From a virus (taxonomy: Duplodnaviria; Caudoviricetes), in the IMG/VR virus record IMGVR_UViG_3300020044_005136, positions 1 to 61,383 of that record: DNA of 61,383 bases, one strand, 5' to 3'. Numbering within the stretch: the stretch's first letter is position 1; every line of letters starts with the position of its first letter. The notes under the pieces were generated by a model. The model saw nothing but the letters and a program-made list of their open reading frames with translations, searched no databases and was not told where the DNA came from. This document shows, in pieces, positions 2,521 through 8,547 of the stretch. Both the position numbers and the translations under genes were made by a program.

Positions 2521-2683
2521 GAATGATGATGGCTGCGTCCGAATAGTATCGGATTGGACAGGGCAGGGAGAACAAGTGCTTTCATTAGGAATTGAAATAC
2601 TTGATAGCCTTGCCGATGTCCAACCCTATACGGAGGGGTTGCTGCAATTTTCCCCAGCGATCCTATCCGATGCTCAACATTAA
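2474..2683 (+). CDS. Hypothetical protein, convergent with the primase
   Basis: Probable TTG start after AAGGA; 3' end overlaps the primase 3' end. Confidence 0.5.
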   Translation: MSQLQNKKIFTIHLIENDDGCVRIVSDWTGQGEQVLSLGIEILDSLADVQPYTEGLLQFSPAILSDAQH

Positions 2684-3490
2684 TTTAGCGAGGCTTTGTG
2701 TTGATTTGAACAGGCCTACTCTCCGCCAGAAATCATTGAAGTCCTCACCTACTGAATCGCTCATCCAGTACGGCCAGCCAATCTGCTTTGCCACCCGCTC
2801 ACCTGTCCCACTCTCGTCGTTATCCGCGATCACAATCCCATCTGGAAGAGTAGCCGCAATTTTGATCATATTCCCAGCACTGAAACAAATGTGTAGCGTG
2901 TATCGTTTCTTCAGCGCCTTCAACGCAGCACGGACAGCAAGACCTGTGGCGTAACCTTCAACCAAGAAATGTGTACCATTGTTGTCGATGGTAAAGGATG
3001 CTCCACCTGTACGCTGGCCGTATAAAAACTTCTTAGTGCCATCCTCTTCTATAACCTGTACACCTACCAAAGAATTTTTTACGCGCATTGGGATAAGTAA
3101 ATAAGGTACGCCATCACGCATCCAGACATTACCCTGCTCTTGGTCGAATCCTTTGTCCTGCAAGTACTTATGCCGCATCAATCCGGAAGAGTTAAGCATA
3201 CCAACAGCCTTACGCATTGCATCCTTCTGCATCCGTAAGATATCTTCCTGTGCATCTTTAACAGCCTTGGCTACCATCGGCCTATCTATAACGTGATCCG
3301 AACCTGGCTGCCAGACGGAAACTTCGGTCTCAAGTGCGTGGTTTTGTACTAAGCCGTGTGTGCCAAGATACTTTACCGCGCCGTTGCGCTTGCGAGGATG
3401 ATCCTCTGTTGGGTATCGTTTCCATACTCCAATTGGTGGGTAATCATTAATGATCACGCCATGCTGCCGAGCAAATTGAATGAAGTCCAT
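2663..3490 (-). CDS. Toprim-domain DNA primase-like protein
   Basis: VEGYATG and IADND Toprim motifs plus DFND; adjacent to the helicase. Confidence 0.85.
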   Translation of the reverse strand: MDFIQFARQHGVIINDYPPIGVWKRYPTEDHPRKRNGAVKYLGTHGLVQNHALETEVSVWQPGSDHVIDRPMVAKAVKDAQEDILRMQKDAMRKAVGMLNSSGLMRHKYLQDKGFDQEQGNVWMRDGVPYLLIPMRVKNSLVGVQVIEEDGTKKFLYGQRTGGASFTIDNNGTHFLVEGYATGLAVRAALKALKKRYTLHICFSAGNMIKIAATLPDGIVIADNDESGTGERVAKQIGWPYWMSDSVGEDFNDFWRRVGLFKSTQSLAKLMLSIG

Positions 3491-4977
3491 TATTTTCCCA
3501 TCCGTTTCGCATAGCTTAATCGGCGAGCGTAGCTTTTGGTTTTCTTAGAAATGAAATTAGCAACCTCTAGTGTCGGCTCTTTCATTGCATCATTCAAACC
3601 TCGCGGCCAAACTCCAAACTTTTCTTTATAGGTGTGAGCAGCCCAGCCCGGCTTCTTCCCTGTCTTGGCTACATACCACTGCAACATAGACCAGAAATCC
3701 TGCTTGTTCACCGTGGACATTGCGCCCTTCAGCTCGTGCATCTGTCCCTTTACTGACTGTACTGCATTCATCCTAACCCTAACAAAACCACAGCACGCAC
3801 AGGTATCTGCTTTTGCAGGCCAGAATGCTTTGCAAGACGGACACTTGCTGGCTTCCTTTTCTTTTTGTGTTAATTCTTTCTTTGTCTTTTCTTTGCCGTC
3901 ATCCAATTCAGATACGCCAAGCTCAAATACTTCTTCCCAATCATCTCGGAATCTCAAGTAATTACCAGAGTGATCTAACCATACGGCGAAGTCTTTTCCT
4001 GGATGCGAGCGCATTACACGACCCATCTGCTGGATGTGTGAGGATAGTGATTTGCTGAATGGACGCGCTGATATTCCTATCATAACGTCAGATACATCAA
4101 ACCCTTTTGTAAGAATATCAGTGGCAATCAGACCGCAAATCTCTGTATCAGACTTCGAGAACTCTTCGATCACATCTTTTTTATATTGGTCATCATCCCG
4201 ATAACTGATACAAATAAAATTATGCCCTGCATCTTGAAACTTTTGAGCCAGATCAGCACCATGATCAACACCAGCACTGAACACAATAGTTTTGCGTGGC
4301 CTACCAAATATCTCCAGAGTTTTATTAACCCACTCAGATACCACATCGCCTGTGATTTTAATGCCCCGCTCAGTAGCTTCAGATTGAGACCATTCGCCGG
4401 CTACCTTCTTTGCTCCATCCATATTAATTTCTTTTGCGATATACACCCGCAGCGGCACAAGGTTGCCGTGATCTACTAACTGCTTCGTGGTAATGGTGGA
4501 CACAACATTCGTGTACATCTTACCCATGCCCTTGGTAAACGGCGTGGCGGTCAATCCAATTACTTTGATATGTGGATTGTTCTTTACGAACTCGGTTGTC
4601 TTTGCTCTCTGTGCGTGACACTCATCAATGATAAGCAGATCAAGACCAGGAAACTCACCGCGCTTCTCAATTGTCTGCGCAGAGCAAACCTGTATGGCTT
4701 CATACGGGCGATAGCGCCAGTGTCCTGCCTGTAGTACGCCGTGATCTATCCCATACTTTTGCAGCCTGAGACTAGTCTGATCACATAAGACAATGCGGTC
4801 TAATAACATCGCCGCTTTACTTCCCTTCTTCTTTGCAGCATCGAGCATAGCAATAGCAATTTCTGTCTTGCCACCACCAGTGCCTAAGTAAAGTACTTGA
4901 GATGTATGCCCTGCTGCAAATCCCTCGCGCAGCTTTTGGATAGCCGCTTCTTGATAATCCCGTAGTTCTAACGCCAT
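3490..4977 (-). CDS. Superfamily 2 DExH helicase with C-terminal Zn finger (RadD/YejH-like)
   Basis: GTGGGKT Walker A, DECH, TAT, QQMGRVMR and CPSC..CACC motifs. Confidence 0.92.
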   Translation of the reverse strand: MALELRDYQEAAIQKLREGFAAGHTSQVLYLGTGGGKTEIAIAMLDAAKKKGSKAAMLLDRIVLCDQTSLRLQKYGIDHGVLQAGHWRYRPYEAIQVCSAQTIEKRGEFPGLDLLIIDECHAQRAKTTEFVKNNPHIKVIGLTATPFTKGMGKMYTNVVSTITTKQLVDHGNLVPLRVYIAKEINMDGAKKVAGEWSQSEATERGIKITGDVVSEWVNKTLEIFGRPRKTIVFSAGVDHGADLAQKFQDAGHNFICISYRDDDQYKKDVIEEFSKSDTEICGLIATDILTKGFDVSDVMIGISARPFSKSLSSHIQQMGRVMRSHPGKDFAVWLDHSGNYLRFRDDWEEVFELGVSELDDGKEKTKKELTQKEKEASKCPSCKAFWPAKADTCACCGFVRVRMNAVQSVKGQMHELKGAMSTVNKQDFWSMLQWYVAKTGKKPGWAAHTYKEKFGVWPRGLNDAMKEPTLEVANFISKKTKSYARRLSYAKRMGK

Positions 4978-5022: not shown

Positions 5023-5883
5023 TTATTTTGTTTCCATCTTTTTGATTTTATTCATCAAAGATGCAATCTGTTTTTTCAACTGCGCATTTTCGGATTGAAA
5101 TGAATCTCTAGACTGCTTGACCGCTTTCATTTCCATTTCCATCATACTGATCTCAGCACGCAATCCAGAAATAATAGACTCAGCCATTTTCTTTTCCTCA
5201 TCCGTGCCATCCATTGCAGCCACGGCCAGACGATCAGATAGCTGCTGATTTTCTTCTTCCAATGTAACAACCGCATCTTCCAACTGAATTAGTTCATGGG
5301 CGCGATCCTCATCAGCTTTATTTTTATCTTCATCAGCTTTATTTTTTTCTGCTTCAGCTTTCTTATTCTCAGCATCAGATTTTTTATCTGCTACTGGCTT
5401 GCTATCAGTCTTAGTGTCACTTACCTCTGACTTTGGTGAGAATAATTCCTTTCGAACTTTAGAAACAAATGATTGATCGCACCCACATTTTTTTGCAATT
5501 TCCAATTGCGTCATCATCCCCCACTCAAAATCATTGAGCATTTTTGTTACATTCATGCGTTTATCCGCGTTATTAGGCGGCATACCGTGCGTGTTATTTG
5601 CCTCAATCGCATAAAATTGAGCATCGCGTAACAACCCCTCTCTTACCTCGCAATCCATTCCTGGGCTACCAATTTTTTTGTTGGCAAAATATCGGTGAAA
5701 TCCATCTGATAAGTAATATTCACGGCCATCATAATAAACAACTGCTGGATCAAATATTTCACCCATCAACATCTTCCCCGCATATTCTTCAATTTTTTCT
5801 GGAATATTTTTTTTGCGGCCTTGCGTATCACAATCAATCCTAATTTTGTCTAGGTTGATGTGCATGGTAACTTTCATATTCAT
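5023..5883 (-). CDS. ParB/Srx-like N-terminal domain + HTH + coiled coil
   Basis: LSDGFHR ParB-N motif; TQLEIAKKCGCDQSFVSKVR HTH; heptad C-terminus. Confidence 0.75.
   Translation of the reverse strand: MNMKVTMHINLDKIRIDCDTQGRKKNIPEKIEEYAGKMLMGEIFDPAVVYYDGREYYLSDGFHRYFANKKIGSPGMDCEVREGLLRDAQFYAIEANNTHGMPPNNADKRMNVTKMLNDFEWGMMTQLEIAKKCGCDQSFVSKVRKELFSPKSEVSDTKTDSKPVADKKSDAENKKAEAEKNKADEDKNKADEDRAHELIQLEDAVVTLEEENQQLSDRLAVAAMDGTDEEKKMAESIISGLRAEISMMEMEMKAVKQSRDSFQSENAQLKKQIASLMNKIKKMETK
5311..5375. repeat. Imperfect 21-bp in-frame tandem repeat (NKADEDK-type heptads)
   Basis: atcagctttattttt recurs at 5311 and 5332, with degenerate further copies. Confidence 0.6.
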
Positions 5884-6167
5884 AGTATTTCCACTTTTAT
5901 AAGTTTGTGTGTGTCGTAATCAAAAGTAACAAGCAAATTAGCTTTATCACTAGGGAATGATTTAAATTTGCAGTTCCCTATCTCCATGTAAACGTGCTGC
6001 TTTAATACTTTCTTTTCTTTCTTTACCCTGTACTGCACAGACTCATGCCATTCAGGATGATCTATGGTTATCCACAAGTCATCCTTACCTGCCATAAATA
6101 CTTTCATTTCTATTTCAAGGCCATCTGCCCATGCCTTGATTTCGTTGGCGTGTTTGTGTTTTTTCAT
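5880..6167 (-). CDS. Conserved phage hypothetical protein (KHKHANEIKAWADG)
   Basis: ORF overlapping both neighbours; common phage N-terminal motif. Confidence 0.75.
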   Translation of the reverse strand: MKKHKHANEIKAWADGLEIEMKVFMAGKDDLWITIDHPEWHESVQYRVKKEKKVLKQHVYMEIGNCKFKSFPSDKANLLVTFDYDTHKLIKVEIL

Positions 6168-6466
6168 TACCGCCTCAGTAAATTTATGCCTCTGAGTTTA
6201 AACATCGTAGTCTGGTCAGACGCTGGCAGCTTAGGCTTGATTGCCATGTAGTACATCTCTGGATTAAGCGTAGTGGGCTCATCCAAGAACACGCGCTTAA
6301 GCAGATCAGGATCTCTTTTCTTGGGCTCATCCTTAAATTCTTTGAAGAATACTCGTGGGTTCTGCCGCTTCAGAAACTCCGTAACTCTTTCAATTTCCTG
6401 AATCCGCTTGCCCTTTGGCGATGCCGCAGCCTCTTTCAATAAAGCAACTTCTACCTGTGTAAGCAT
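6167..6466 (-). CDS. Hypothetical protein (MLTQVEVALLKEAA...)
   Basis: GGAGG RBS at 6472-6476 places the start at 6466 rather than 6589. Confidence 0.7.
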   Translation of the reverse strand: MLTQVEVALLKEAAASPKGKRIQEIERVTEFLKRQNPRVFFKEFKDEPKKRDPDLLKRVFLDEPTTLNPEMYYMAIKPKLPASDQTTMFKLRGINLLRR

Positions 6467-6493
6467 CAATACCTCCGTGTGAAAAGAGCTTTC

Positions 6494-6522
6494 AGAATAT
6501 TCCAATCTAAACCAATGGTCAA
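6494..6522 (-). promoter_or_regulatory. sigma70-type promoter for the replication operon
   Basis: TTGACC-N17-TATTCT on the minus strand. Confidence 0.55.
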
Positions 6523-6574
6523 CAGATACTTGAAAATATTTATATGTGTTGCATAAATTATCAGAAAATTTAAG

Positions 6575-6860
6575 CGATAGGTTCCCCAAGGGTGATAAGC
6601 CCAGCTGTTAGCCTTCCGCAGGCTAGAGTGGTGTTATCTTTTCCCAGCCCAATACACAAATGTATAAACTTTCGTGTACCTAGCATTCCCGTAAGGCAGC
6701 GATTTATTCAACGTAGAGTTTGTCTCACCACTGGCCTCTACATCTATGATAGTCCCTCACTGACAGGCTATCCGACTCGCACGGGGGTGTACCGTGGCCG
6801 ATGTATTCTAGACGGCAGCCCATGTAGGCTCACTACTAACGCGGTCTGTGGCGGTCTTGG
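6575..6860 (-). ncRNA. Candidate large (~290 nt) structured ncRNA with at least two pseudoknots
   Basis: Six or more helices and two loop-distal pairings found by eye; no convincing ORF on the transcribed strand. Confidence 0.55.
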
Positions 6861-6863
6861 AAA

Positions 6864-6945
6864 GCAAAAAGCCCTTTAGGCTTGGCTCTCCGTGTATCAG
6901 GCACGTTTCCATTGAAGGAAGAGAACCAAAGCTAAAGGGCTTCGG
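6864..6945 (-). ncRNA. C4-like antisense RNA (three-way junction)
   Basis: Long outer stem (6866-6890/6921-6943), two inner hairpins whose loops UUCAAU and CCUGAUA match the upstream site UAUCAGG-C-AUUGA, U-rich 3' end. Confidence 0.7.
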
Positions 6946-6977
6946 CAGTCGTCAATGCCTGATACAGAGACACCCAA

Positions 6978-7007
6978 AGTATAGAACAAAAATAAATGTC
7001 TATGCAA
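6978..7007 (-). promoter_or_regulatory. sigma70-type promoter for the C4-like RNA
   Basis: TTGCAT-N18-TATACT on the minus strand. Confidence 0.6.
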
Positions 7008-7024
7008 GCGGTATCTGTGCAGGC

Positions 7025-7057
7025 AAAAAAAAGCCGGAGTCTCTTAGCAACTCCGGC
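7025..7057 (-). terminator. Intrinsic terminator
   Basis: GCCGGAGT/ACTCCGGC stem followed by 8 U on the minus strand. Confidence 0.8.
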
Positions 7058-7243
7058 GAACTCGGTGTGTTCACGAGCGAGGAAAAGGGCAGGGTCACTA
7101 CCGTGAAAGTTCAGACTATTGCAGTAGCCCCTGATGCCGATGTTACACGCCACTATCGGCTTGGCGTCTCTTGCCGTAATTGGTGAGACAGAACCCACAG
7201 CAAACCTACACCAAGTAAAGTTCACCATGAACGCTGTCTCTGA
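7025..7243 (-). ncRNA. Candidate ~215-nt sRNA with a pseudoknot, bounded by a TATAAT box and a terminator
   Basis: TATAAT at 7249-7254 (minus); pseudoknot 7136-7167; hairpin 7092-7131; terminator 7025-7057. Confidence 0.45.
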
Positions 7244-7255
7244 ATAAAATTATAC

Positions 7256-7537
7256 CTACATTTCTAACGCGGCCAAAGCTTCTTCTACATTATTCACAAT
7301 AATTAACGTACCACCACGCCAATCCTCAAAGAATTTAGCCTCTGCCGTCGTTAATTTACGTGCGCTTGGCACCTTATCCCCATCCTTTACTTCCATTAGA
7401 TAGGTCTTGCGGGCATATCCAACTAACAGATCCGGTATTCCATCACCCTGGCTAATGATCCTGACCGTAGCGCCAGCACCCCGCAGCGCATCTACTATGG
7501 CGTTTTGATTGGCATCAATCCTATTTGCGTATCTCAT
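7256..7537 (-). CDS. VRR-NUC-like PD-(D/E)XK nuclease (possible Holliday-junction resolvase)
   Basis: DANQNAIVDALR...GIPDLLVG...LMEVKDG motifs. Confidence 0.8.
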   Translation of the reverse strand: MRYANRIDANQNAIVDALRGAGATVRIISQGDGIPDLLVGYARKTYLMEVKDGDKVPSARKLTTAEAKFFEDWRGGTLIIVNNVEEALAALEM

Positions 7538-7560
7538 TCGAGCCCCATCGTTAGAAACAA

Positions 7561-7621
7561 TGCAACAGTTAGTACTGGTTGCAACATAACACTTGACACC
7601 GTAGGTATGTTGTCCTAAGAT
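7561..7621 (+). promoter_or_regulatory. Divergent control region: sigma70 promoter of the recombination operon with operator-like palindromes
   Basis: TTGACA(7593)-N17-TAAGAT(7616); TGCAAC..GTTGCA (7561-7583) and CAACATA..TATGTTG inverted repeats. Confidence 0.65.
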
Positions 7622-7647
7622 TCAATCTCACACACCAAGGAGCAATC

Positions 7648-8547
7648 GTGAAACTGACCAATAACCACAATATACCTGCCACTTTTGTGAACGTCATAAA
7701 GCGTCCACAGTACTCACGCGGCGATGCAAACATCAGTGTTACAGAATTACTCTCATCCCCCCGTATTGTCCAGCTGCGCGCCAAGCATGAGGCTGAGACT
7801 GAACAGGATGTATCAGAGATGATCTGGTCGTTGTTCGGCTCCGCTGTGCATAACATTCTAGAGCACGGCAAGGATGAGCATCATATCGTAGAAGAGCGTT
7901 TGTTTACACAGTTTGAAGGATGGCGTCTGTCTGGCGCGATTGATCTTCAAGAGATCTATACAGATGGCGTAGTTATTTCAGACTACAAAGTCACCGGCGC
8001 ATGGTCAGTGATGCAGGAAAAAGATGATTGGGTTACCCAGCTAAACATCTATGCATGGCTCGTCGAGAAGTGCAAAAACGTGAAAGTAAAGAAGATCCAG
8101 ATCGTAGGCATTGTCCGTGATTGGCAAGCCCGTGACGCTGCGACTAGAGAAGGATACCCATCTTCCCCTGTCGCTGTATTAGAGATGCCCCTGTGGCCGT
8201 TTGAGGAGCGTGAAGCCTATATTAAAACCCGTATCCACCTACACAACGACGCGTACTTTGCTAGCAAAACAGGTTTGGAGTTTGCTGAATGTACGCCTGC
8301 TGAAATGTGGGAGAAACCTACTATTTATGCCGTGAGAAAGATTGGCGGCGTCCGTGCCAAAGCTTTATACGGCAACAAAGAAGAAGCACAAGAGGCTCTG
8401 GCTGCCTTGAATATTAAAAAGCCAGACTACGAAATAGAAGTACGTGACGGGGAGAGAACCCGTTGCGCACGCTACTGCCAGGTTAGTAAATTCTGTACGC
8501 AGAATCAAGAGTACTTAAAAACACATTCAATTGAGGAGCAACTGTGA
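7648..8547 (+). CDS. PD-(D/E)XK (RecB/Cas4-like) exonuclease
   Basis: GSAVH, SGAID, DYK and QLNIY motifs; C-terminal RCxxYCxxxxFC. Confidence 0.85.
   Translation: MKLTNNHNIPATFVNVIKRPQYSRGDANISVTELLSSPRIVQLRAKHEAETEQDVSEMIWSLFGSAVHNILEHGKDEHHIVEERLFTQFEGWRLSGAIDLQEIYTDGVVISDYKVTGAWSVMQEKDDWVTQLNIYAWLVEKCKNVKVKKIQIVGIVRDWQARDAATREGYPSSPVAVLEMPLWPFEEREAYIKTRIHLHNDAYFASKTGLEFAECTPAEMWEKPTIYAVRKIGGVRAKALYGNKEEAQEALAALNIKKPDYEIEVRDGERTRCARYCQVSKFCTQNQEYLKTHSIEEQL

What the first reader, a model, noticed from the sequence alone, without database searches (positions are those of the whole stretch)
6575..6860. Large multi-pseudoknot non-coding RNA candidate at the head of the replication module
Seen (minus-strand RNA, plus-strand coordinates): hairpins 6817-6830, 6780-6796 (extended by flanking UCGGC/GUCGG), 6748-6772, 6711-6743, 6652-6679 and 6609-6625. 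There are also two loop-to-distal pairings: CAGUGA (6757-6762) with UCGCUG (6697-6702), and GGUGA (6725-6729) with UCACC (6591-6595). It is one of the longest gene-free stretches of a compact genome. It lies directly downstream of the C4-like RNA and upstream of the ParB-like, helicase and primase genes, and I see no replication initiator or DNA polymerase gene. Inference: an RNA I cannot assign to a known class that may act in replication initiation (primer/R-loop, as ColE1 RNA II does) or as a ribozyme or scaffold.
Basis: partly seen in the sequence, partly recalled or inferred. Interest (0 to 1): 0.78.

Follow-up and report, generated by a model that had tools for sequence, protein, structure and literature searches.

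The report
New pseudoknotted RNA family in phages
The flagged stretch encodes a real, about 285-base, tightly folded non-coding RNA from a large family carried by uncultivated freshwater phages and absent from the RNA family catalogue; its job is unknown, but it is an optional extra, not part of the replication machinery.

Summary
Window 6576-6862 (minus strand) matches, at 190.9 bits, a covariance model built from related phage sequences. GGUGA/UCACC covaries at one pair. The last two hairpins are lineage-specific insertions. On 96 distinct sequences, 95.5% of cells pair (71.4% shuffled; 34-46% slid) and 40 of 46 pairs change on both sides.

The family is large: 87 IMG/VR stretches carry the 3' 19-mer, and an internal motif hits at least 120 more viral and at least 120 metagenome stretches. 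It is almost absent from 185,579 species genomes (1 hit). Rfam 15 has no match. There is no conserved ORF.

The replication-primer idea is not supported. Only 3 of 31 helicase-relative loci carry the RNA, 3 near-complete relatives lack it, and gene contexts differ. In one phage group it occupies a slot that holds unrelated cassettes in sister phages.

Best reading: an accessory, autonomous, probably trans-acting structured RNA. Its function is inferred, not shown.

The parts
6576..6862 (-). The structured RNA as matched end to end by covariance model R1 (250 model positions; about 287 nt here because of two lineage-specific insertions)
   Evidence: 190.9 bits, E 2.6e-55; it is the only match in the window
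6811..6846 (-). Helix P2 (6846-6844 with 6813-6811), which encloses hairpin HB (6830-6827 with 6820-6817, loop UACAUG)
   Evidence: helices 1 and 2: 98.3% and 100% paired; 3 of 3 and 3 of 4 pairs change on both sides
6773..6800 (-). Helix HC (6800-6797 with 6776-6773), which encloses hairpin HD (6795-6792 with 6784-6781). The HD loop carries the conserved CACCC.
   Evidence: helix 3: 4 of 4 pairs change on both sides. HD: (score 4.49 in the MAFFT alignment); weaker (75-78% paired)
6749..6771 (-). Hairpin HE (6771-6766 with 6755-6749). Its 10-nt loop holds the 5' strand of pseudoknot 1 (CAGUGA, 6762-6757).
   Evidence: helix 6: 100% paired; 5 of 6 pairs change on both sides
6710..6744 (-). Hairpin HF (6744-6736 with 6718-6710). 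Its loop holds the conserved GGUGAGACAA, and GGUGA (6729-6725) is the 5' strand of pseudoknot 2.
   Evidence: helix 8: 9 of 9 pairs change on both sides; 93.8% paired
6697..6702 (-). 3' strand of pseudoknot 1 (UCGCUG), which pairs with 6762-6757
   Evidence: helix 7: 6 of 6 pairs change on both sides; 98.2% paired; this helix was not in the model used for the alignment
6688..6696 (-). Small hairpin P8 (CCU-UAC-GGG)
   Evidence: helix 10: 98.6% paired; 3 of 3 pairs change on both sides in a few sequences
6609..6683 (-). Variable region. P9 5' strand CUAG (6683-6680), then two lineage-specific hairpins (6679-6652 and 6625-6609). The 3' partner of P9 is ambiguous in this sequence.
   Evidence: compensatory changes against close relatives were read by eye
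6576..6595 (-). 3' tail: UCACC (6595-6591, 3' strand of pseudoknot 2), then CUUGGGGAACCUAU. Family-wide it reads YCACCCUUGGGGNNNCUAU.
   Evidence: helix 9: terminal pair AU 55, GC 39
6862..6967 (-). Upstream companion element: a long-stem hairpin whose 3' half plus U run (6883-6864) looks like an intrinsic terminator. A comparable U run lies within 40 nt upstream of the RNA in 69 of 96 family members.
   Evidence: The start of the element at about 6967 is my estimate from a promoter-like TTGCAT/TATACT pair seen by eye; it is not a tool result.

Best explanation
Window 6576-6862 (minus strand) encodes one member of a large family of phage-borne structured non-coding RNAs that I did not find catalogued.

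Fold. Family members are about 230-315 nt. They have nine nested helices and two pseudoknots. The pseudoknots tie the loop of hairpin HE to a downstream strand, and the loop of hairpin HF to the 3' tail.

Most likely mode of action (inferred, not shown). The RNA is an accessory, autonomous gene product. It is transcribed on the gene strand as part of early or read-through transcripts, usually just past a long-stem terminator-like hairpin. It probably becomes a stable RNA whose ends are protected by its own compact fold. It then acts in trans, by binding a host or phage factor or a small ligand, or by catalysis. I do not think it acts on the adjacent genes or on the replication origin.

Shown: the fold, the strand, the family, the lack of coding potential, the patchy and cassette-like distribution, and the variety of gene contexts.
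Inferred: transcription, processing, action in trans and the target.
For: Fold and family:
- Covariation on 96 distinct sequences: 95.5% of cells paired, against 71.4% shuffled (0 of 500 shuffles reach it) and 34-46% with partners slid. The covariation score is 0.634 against 0.189. 40 of 46 pairs change on both sides.
- The same helices come out of MAFFT-only alignments.
- Both pseudoknots were left out of the model, yet they pair in 98.2% and 91.4% of cells.
- The model finds one hit per locus in 100 of 100 loci, at 114-228 bits.

Not coding:
- Stop-free frames: 22 of 288 on the sense strand and 12 of 288 on the antisense strand.
- Conservation shows no 3-base periodicity.
- RNA lengths modulo 3 are 34, 28 and 34.

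Autonomous rather than a leader:
- Neighbour strands (upstream, downstream) are ++ 38, +- 19, -+ 17, -- 5, plus 17 at contig ends. At least 26 of 96 are followed by a convergent gene.
- Distance to the next ORF of 40 or more codons ranges from -2 to 191 nt.
- The most common neighbouring protein cluster occurs in only 21 of 88 loci.

Accessory:
- 3 of 31 helicase-relative loci carry it.
- 1 of 4 near-complete related genomes carries it.
- In the L017 group, homology to sister phages breaks exactly at the RNA's borders, and the slot holds unrelated cassettes.

Phage-specific:
- 1 hit in 185,579 species genomes.
- 1 of 151 genomes of that hit's order, and that one is the hit itself.

No partner protein evident: Pfam finds no reverse transcriptase, integrase, polymerase or RNA-binding family in 68 window proteins.
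Against: - No transcript has been shown.
- By a crude scan, a sigma-70-like promoter lies within 150 nt upstream in only 3 of 93 sequences (shuffles average 5.2).
- An intrinsic terminator lies within 150-160 nt downstream in only 2-3 of 92 (shuffles 0-2). A classic stand-alone small-RNA gene layout is therefore missing, and expression must be assumed to come from read-through and processing.
- 47 of 96 sequences end in AUG, and in 12 of those an ORF of 40 or more codons starts exactly there. In some phages the 3' tail may therefore double as a ribosome-binding region, which fits a cis role.
- The fold is not more stable than shuffled sequence (z = -0.33).
- No target, ligand or partner has been identified.
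Confidence: 0.5

Rival explanations
1. A cis-acting leader. On this reading the RNA works on its own transcript, in one of three ways: as a riboswitch-like sensor, as a translation operator whose 3' tail (GGGG...AUG) is the ribosome-binding region of the next gene, or as an RNA that makes RNA polymerase resistant to termination, as the put RNAs of phage HK022 do (recalled from general knowledge).
For: - The RNA lies on the same strand as the upstream gene in 61 of 96 loci and the downstream gene in 63 of 96.
- It almost never has its own terminator (2-3 of 92), so transcription should run on into what follows.
- 47 of 96 sequences end in AUG, with GGGG five bases upstream. In 12 of them a real-looking ORF starts there, including a 53-aa protein shared by 8 loci.
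- In the window it sits just upstream of the replication operon.
Against: - At least 26 of 96 are followed by a convergent gene.
- Downstream gene families are diverse and lie at distances from -2 to 191 nt.
- The window itself has AUC rather than AUG. About 55 nt downstream there is a separate promoter-like site for the next gene, at 6522-6494.
- The terminator-like hairpin lies upstream of the RNA, which is the wrong order both for a riboswitch expression platform and for a put-type element.
Confidence: 0.2
2. A catalytic or mobile RNA: either a self-cleaving or self-processing ribozyme that cuts itself out of polycistronic transcripts, or an intron-like mobile cassette.
For: - The compact double-pseudoknot fold has many invariant unpaired bases.
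- Borders are exact and cassette-like, in a slot that in sister phages holds other non-coding cassettes. Two of those carry an HNH endonuclease ORF.
- The base after the conserved CUAU is most often G: the end reads NNUAUG in 47 of 96.
Against: - No Rfam ribozyme or intron family matches, even at E up to 10. The one twister hit (11.5 bits, E 9.8) lies outside the RNA, on the opposite strand, and is noise.
- The order of helices does not fit the P3/P7 core of group I introns (the comparison is from recall).
- The RNA is intergenic in all contexts examined, so there are no exons to join.
- No empty-site allele was seen among 15 loci of the L017 group.
Confidence: 0.12
3. One reading: a replication primer or R-loop RNA (in the manner of ColE1 RNA II), or an origin-linked RNA serving the adjacent ParB-like, helicase and primase genes.
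For: - In the window and its close relative L002, the RNA lies at the head of the replication operon.
- No DNA polymerase or initiator family was found in the window's proteins.
Against: - Only 3 of 31 helicase-relative loci have it.
- Three near-complete genomes with 65-69% identical helicases lack it, and a fourth has it elsewhere in the genome.
- In 11 loci it follows the large terminase gene, and elsewhere it follows cro-like genes.
- In sister phages unrelated cassettes replace it.
- An essential origin element would not be this patchy.
Confidence: 0.05
4. Not an RNA at all: either a DNA-level site (single-stranded DNA structure, packaging or binding site) or a small protein gene (plus-strand frame 6592-6879).
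For: - A 95-codon plus-strand ORF overlaps the region.
- Strand-specific G-T pairing could in principle occur in single-stranded DNA.
Against: - No frame is conserved, and there is no codon periodicity.
- The ORF has no Pfam or PHROG match.
- Compensatory changes in 40 of 46 pairs, including two pseudoknots, point to a folded single strand.
- I know of no precedent for a 250-nt pseudoknotted DNA fold (from recall).
Confidence: 0.03

Closest known systems
Orphan 'ornate' large bacterial and phage RNAs such as GOLLD, ROOL and raiA (names recalled; a cryo-EM preprint on GOLLD and ROOL was seen only as a search listing and abstract start)
   Same: A complex, strongly covarying fold with pseudoknots. 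Found in phages and environmental sequence. No associated protein and no known function.
   Different: No sequence or structure match to any Rfam 15 family. At 230-315 nt it is much smaller than GOLLD or ROOL. So far it is found only on phage-sized contigs and one 1.6-kb contig of a genome bin.
C4 antisense RNA of phages P1/P7 and CI RNA of satellite phage P4 (properties recalled, not from a call)
   Same: The region upstream of the RNA holds a small structured element ending in a U run. In the window, the arrangement of small RNA first and replication genes downstream resembles the P4 layout.
   Different: cmscan finds no C4 match, or any other match, in 6300-7700 at E up to 10. The comparison concerns the upstream element, not the 285-nt RNA.
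ColE1 RNA II replication primer (properties recalled)
   Same: A long, folded, non-coding transcript near replication functions in the window.
   Different: The family is not linked to replication genes and is dispensable in relatives. No origin, antisense RNA I equivalent or RNase H site has been identified.
[quoted passage not shown] 2023, PMC10690425; I read only the abstract and section outline)
   Same: That screen used viral sequence collections that include IMG/VR-type data, and it reports covarying candidates of unknown function. This family may be among them.
   Different: The sections listed in the outline deal with tRNA-like structures, terminators and leaders of GP20 and GP32, none of which resembles this RNA.

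Membership tests
Any Rfam 15 family (4227 models) | A score at or above the family's gathering threshold | tested here: not met
   There were 0 matches in the whole window. Across 15 other RNA-bearing loci the only 2 matches were a tRNA and Betaproteobacteria-1, both away from the RNA. At E up to 10 only noise hits appeared, at 12.1 and 11.5 bits.
C4 antisense RNA (P1/P7 type) for the upstream neighbour | A match to Rfam's C4 covariance model | tested here: not met
   cmscan of 6300-7700 at E up to 10 lists no C4 match.
ColE1 RNA II-type replication primer | Obligate linkage to the replicon's origin and replication functions | tested here: not met
   3 of 31 helicase-relative loci carry the RNA. 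3 of 4 near-complete related genomes lack it. Contexts after the large terminase gene or cro-like genes occur.
ColE1 RNA II-type replication primer | R-loop formation and RNase H processing at an origin, with control by an antisense RNA | not testable with these tools
   This needs replication assays and transcript mapping.
Group I intron | Interrupts a gene, with exons on both sides | tested here: not met
   The RNA is intergenic in the window and in the loci examined. The gene-free gap that holds it has a median of 572 nt.
Group I intron | A match to the intron model or its conserved core | tested here: not met
   No Rfam intron match at E up to 10. The helix order differs from the core as I recall it.
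Riboswitch or cis-regulatory leader | A constant position upstream of one gene family, with an expression platform downstream of the aptamer | tested here: not met
   At least 26 of 96 are followed by a convergent gene. The largest neighbour cluster occurs in 21 of 88 loci. A downstream terminator occurs in 2-3 of 92. The terminator-like hairpin is upstream (69 of 96).
Stand-alone small-RNA gene (own promoter and own intrinsic terminator) | A promoter just upstream and a terminator just downstream | tested here: not met
   A promoter-like site occurs in 3 of 93 (shuffles average 5.2). A terminator-like site occurs in 2-3 of 92. These were crude consensus scans, and host promoter types are unknown.
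Structured RNA family in general | Compensatory base changes that preserve helices across diverged homologues | tested here: met
   40 of 46 pairs change on both sides; 95.5% of cells paired against 71.4% shuffled and 34-46% slid.

The most novel reading that the evidence does not exclude
A new class of functional RNA that phages carry as an optional counter-measure against the host. It would be either a ribozyme or a high-affinity RNA 'sponge' or decoy whose pseudoknotted pocket captures a host factor or a small signalling molecule. The evidence allows this: the RNA is accessory, swaps like a cassette, has no partner protein, keeps many invariant unpaired bases and is absent from host genomes. 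Nothing so far supports this reading directly.
Probability: 0.1. Interest if true: 0.95.

Novelty: categorically new. Interest (0 to 1): 0.82.

Why it matters
Large, strongly covarying RNAs with two pseudoknots are rare. The known ones have mostly turned out to be ribozymes, riboswitches or the cores of RNA-protein machines.

This family has at least 144 distinct sequences from the viral collection alone, and more in metagenomes. It has a well-defined fold and a clear ecological home in phages of lake and other freshwater samples. Rfam holds no entry for it.

It is small enough for in vitro probing, ligand screens and structure determination, and the covariance model gives a ready way to find members. 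Because it behaves as an accessory cassette, it may point to an RNA-based way for phages to manipulate their hosts.

It also corrects the natural but wrong inference, drawn from a single genome, that the RNA belongs to the replication module.

Tried and rejected
- Thermodynamic stability as evidence. Neither strand folds better than shuffles, so the case rests on covariation.
- Close DNA relatives in GenBank phages and in plasmids: none by blastn. At E up to 10 only 22-31 nt chance hits appeared.
- tRNA or tmRNA identity or adjacency. ARAGORN finds none in the window, and in 34 loci it finds only 4 tRNAs, all distant from the RNA. One locus (L053) has a tRNA-like 3' end upstream by eye, but ARAGORN calls no tRNA there.
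- Expression data. No RNA holder was listed. Two runs labelled RNA-Seq (one flagged by the tool as probably DNA) gave low-depth contigs spread over coding and non-coding parts alike, so I draw no conclusion on transcription.
- Pairing between the upstream element and the RNA. I asked whether the NCACC motif of the upstream element covaries with the GGUGR loop of hairpin HF. It does not.
- Homology between the RNA and the alternative cassettes in the same slot. With filters off, the model finds only noise, at most 6.8 bits, and Rfam matches none of them.
- Host-gene fragment or attachment-site idea. Rejected because host genomes lack the RNA.
- Literature. Three answered full-text searches and passages from one 2026 preprint turned up no description of this RNA.

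Full report
**What is in the window.** The window is a complete 61,383-bp phage genome with direct terminal repeats. On the minus strand lie a primase-like gene (2663-3490), an SF2 helicase (3490-4977), a ParB-like gene (5023-5883), two small ORFs (5880-6167 and 6167-6466) and, further up, a 93-aa nuclease-like ORF (7256-7537). Between 6467 and 7255 no convincing ORF exists. The frames there translate to Cys/Arg-rich junk with no Pfam or PHROG match. It is the longest gene-free stretch of the genome. Judged on energy alone the fold is ordinary: z = -0.33 on the minus strand and +0.65 on the plus strand.

**Relatives.** A ParB-based search found one related phage contig (L002). Its whole intergenic region aligns to the window's at 92% column identity, while the adjacent small gene no longer aligns at the DNA level. 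A helicase-based search gave 31 loci. Two of them (L007, L017) carry a much more diverged copy of the 6575-6860 region, with conserved blocks and visibly compensated stems.

- The invariant 19-mer at the RNA's 3' end occurs exactly in 87 stretches of the IMG/VR collection.
- An internal motif, free of that 19-mer, hits at least 120 viral stretches and at least 120 metagenome stretches.
- From the viral scans I collected 156 sequences. Of these 144 are distinct, forming 86 clusters at 90% identity and 46 at 80%.
- G+C ranges from 0.43 to 0.70.

**Structure.** RNAalifold on a 72-sequence MAFFT alignment and my own column-pair scan recovered the same helices. I built covariance model R1 from 37 diverse sequences, with nested helices only. 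It found exactly one hit in each of 100 loci, at 114-228 bits. The window's hit is 6576-6862 on the minus strand, at 190.9 bits.

On the resulting alignment (96 distinct rows) I counted an 11-helix, 46-pair structure that includes both pseudoknots:

| Measure | Observed | Shuffled | 3' partners slid |
|---|---|---|---|
| Cells forming a standard pair | 95.5% | 71.4% (0 of 500 shuffles reach it) | 34-46% |
| Covariation score | 0.634 | 0.189 | 0.05-0.12 |

- 40 of 46 pairs change on both sides.
- Pseudoknot 1 (window 6762-6757 with 6702-6697) changes on both sides in 6 of 6 pairs.
- Pseudoknot 2 (6729-6725 with 6595-6591) shows A-U in 55 and G-C in 39 sequences at its terminal pair. The rest is invariant or shifted in the alignment.
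- Neither pseudoknot was in the model, so the alignment does not favour them.
- Hairpin HD is the weakest helix in this alignment (75-78% paired), but it covaries well in the MAFFT alignment.
- Frequent G-U pairs fix the strand as minus.

**Not coding and not a known family.** Only 22 of 288 sense frames and 12 of 288 antisense frames are free of stops. Conservation has no 3-base period, and lengths are spread evenly modulo 3. Rfam 15 matches nothing at gathering thresholds in the window or on the RNA in 15 further loci. It gives only noise at E up to 10. In particular, there is no C4 match for the upstream element.

**Where the family lives.** The 19-mer occurs once in 185,579 species-representative genomes, on a 1.6-kb contig of a betaproteobacterial genome bin. 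The model finds no other copy in 150 more genomes of that bin's order. GenBank phages and plasmids give nothing by blastn. Listed contigs that hold the RNA are at most about 79 kb long. DNA runs that hold the window's own stretch are labelled lake, freshwater or drinking-water metagenomes.

**Context.**
- Among 88 loci no neighbouring protein family is constant. The largest, a cro-like helix-turn-helix protein, occurs just upstream in 21 loci. A large terminase occurs upstream in 11, the 93-aa nuclease-like protein in 10, and ParB-like and helicase clusters in 8 each.
- Neighbour orientations are mixed, and at least 26 of 96 RNAs face a convergent gene.
- A U run, which is the 3' half of a roughly 100-nt long-stem hairpin, lies within 40 nt upstream in 69 of 96.
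- Downstream terminators and upstream sigma-70-like promoters are no more frequent than in shuffles.
- 47 of 96 end in AUG, but only 12 of those open an ORF of 40 or more codons.

**Accessory and cassette-like.**
- Only 3 of 31 helicase-relative loci carry the RNA.
- Of five whole records of helicase relatives, one carries it, far from the helicase. Three genomes estimated at 95-100% complete lack it.
- In the L017 group, homology to sister phages stops and resumes at the RNA's borders. Between the same conserved flanks, other phages hold one of three alternatives: a different cassette of about 335 nt (L005, L013, L020), a 730-nt cassette with an HNH endonuclease ORF (L004, L016, L026), or a 960-nt one (L006, L015). 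No empty site was seen. These cassettes do not match R1 or Rfam.

**Interpretation.** The fold, strand, family and non-coding nature are shown. The replication-primer idea conflicts with the patchy distribution and the varied contexts. A pure 5'-leader role conflicts with the convergent neighbours and the diverse downstream genes, although the AUG-bearing tail leaves room for a cis role in some phages. The reading that fits all contexts is an autonomous accessory RNA, made from read-through early transcripts and acting in trans. Its target and chemistry are unknown. I put that reading at about 0.5, a cis leader at 0.2, a ribozyme or mobile RNA at 0.12, a replication RNA at 0.05, and a DNA-level or coding explanation at 0.03.

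**Limits.**
- No transcript evidence could be obtained.
- The promoter and terminator scans are crude.
- Pfam was run on 68 of 94 greedy ORFs. Seven further large ORFs were scanned against PHROGs only, and 19 small ones were not scanned.
- Supplementary catalogues that might list this RNA were closed.

Noticed in passing
window 7020-7256 (minus strand): A second conserved non-coding unit of about 215-235 nt. It has a promoter-like site (7276..7249, 10 of 12 matches) and a strong terminator (stem 7057-7033 plus a run of 8 U). It is 88% identical in the close relative L002 and was not found in any other fetched locus. Rfam has no match.
   Followed up: partly
window 6862-6967 (minus strand); also L222, L055, L084, L059, L130, L040, L105, L187: The 'C4-like' element folds as one long imperfect stem whose 3' half plus U run looks like a terminator. 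It has homologues next to the large RNA in 8 further loci. Many other loci carry an element of the same build: a long basal stem, inner hairpins, and a conserved GGUUYC.ACC stretch read by eye.
   Followed up: partly
L005, L013, L020 (about 335 nt); L004, L016, L026 (about 730 nt); L006, L015 (about 960 nt), between the flanks found: Alternative cassettes occupy the same slot as the RNA in sister phages. The 335-nt one shares the RNA's first roughly 18 bases and a CUAUG-like end but nothing else. The two longer ones carry an HNH endonuclease ORF after a GC-rich non-coding part. They may be further unknown RNAs.
   Followed up: partly
L004 about 660-760: Between the U-run hairpin and the slot lies another roughly 95-nt element closed by a perfect 13-bp stem (read by eye). 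It is conserved as the 'left flank' across the L017 group.
   Followed up: no
L048, L066, L071, L080, L119 and others (neighbour cluster 24, 8 loci): A 53-aa ORF starts exactly at the AUG that ends the RNA's conserved 3' tail, with GGGG five bases upstream. In these phages the tail may therefore double as a ribosome-binding site.
   Followed up: partly
L097 5269-5388: A Betaproteobacteria-1 RNA (RF02932, 82.3 bits) lies on one RNA-bearing contig. This hints at a betaproteobacterial host.
   Followed up: no
window 7256-7537 (minus strand): The 93-aa ORF matches only a central part of a PHROG 'endonuclease' family (phrog_93, positions 358-439 of 613). Relatives sit upstream of the RNA in 10 of 88 loci.
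   Followed up: no
window, whole genome: Pfam finds SU10 adaptor, NinX, MazG, ERF and a PD-(D/E)XK exonuclease, but no DNA polymerase, RNA polymerase, integrase or reverse transcriptase among the proteins scanned.
   Followed up: partly
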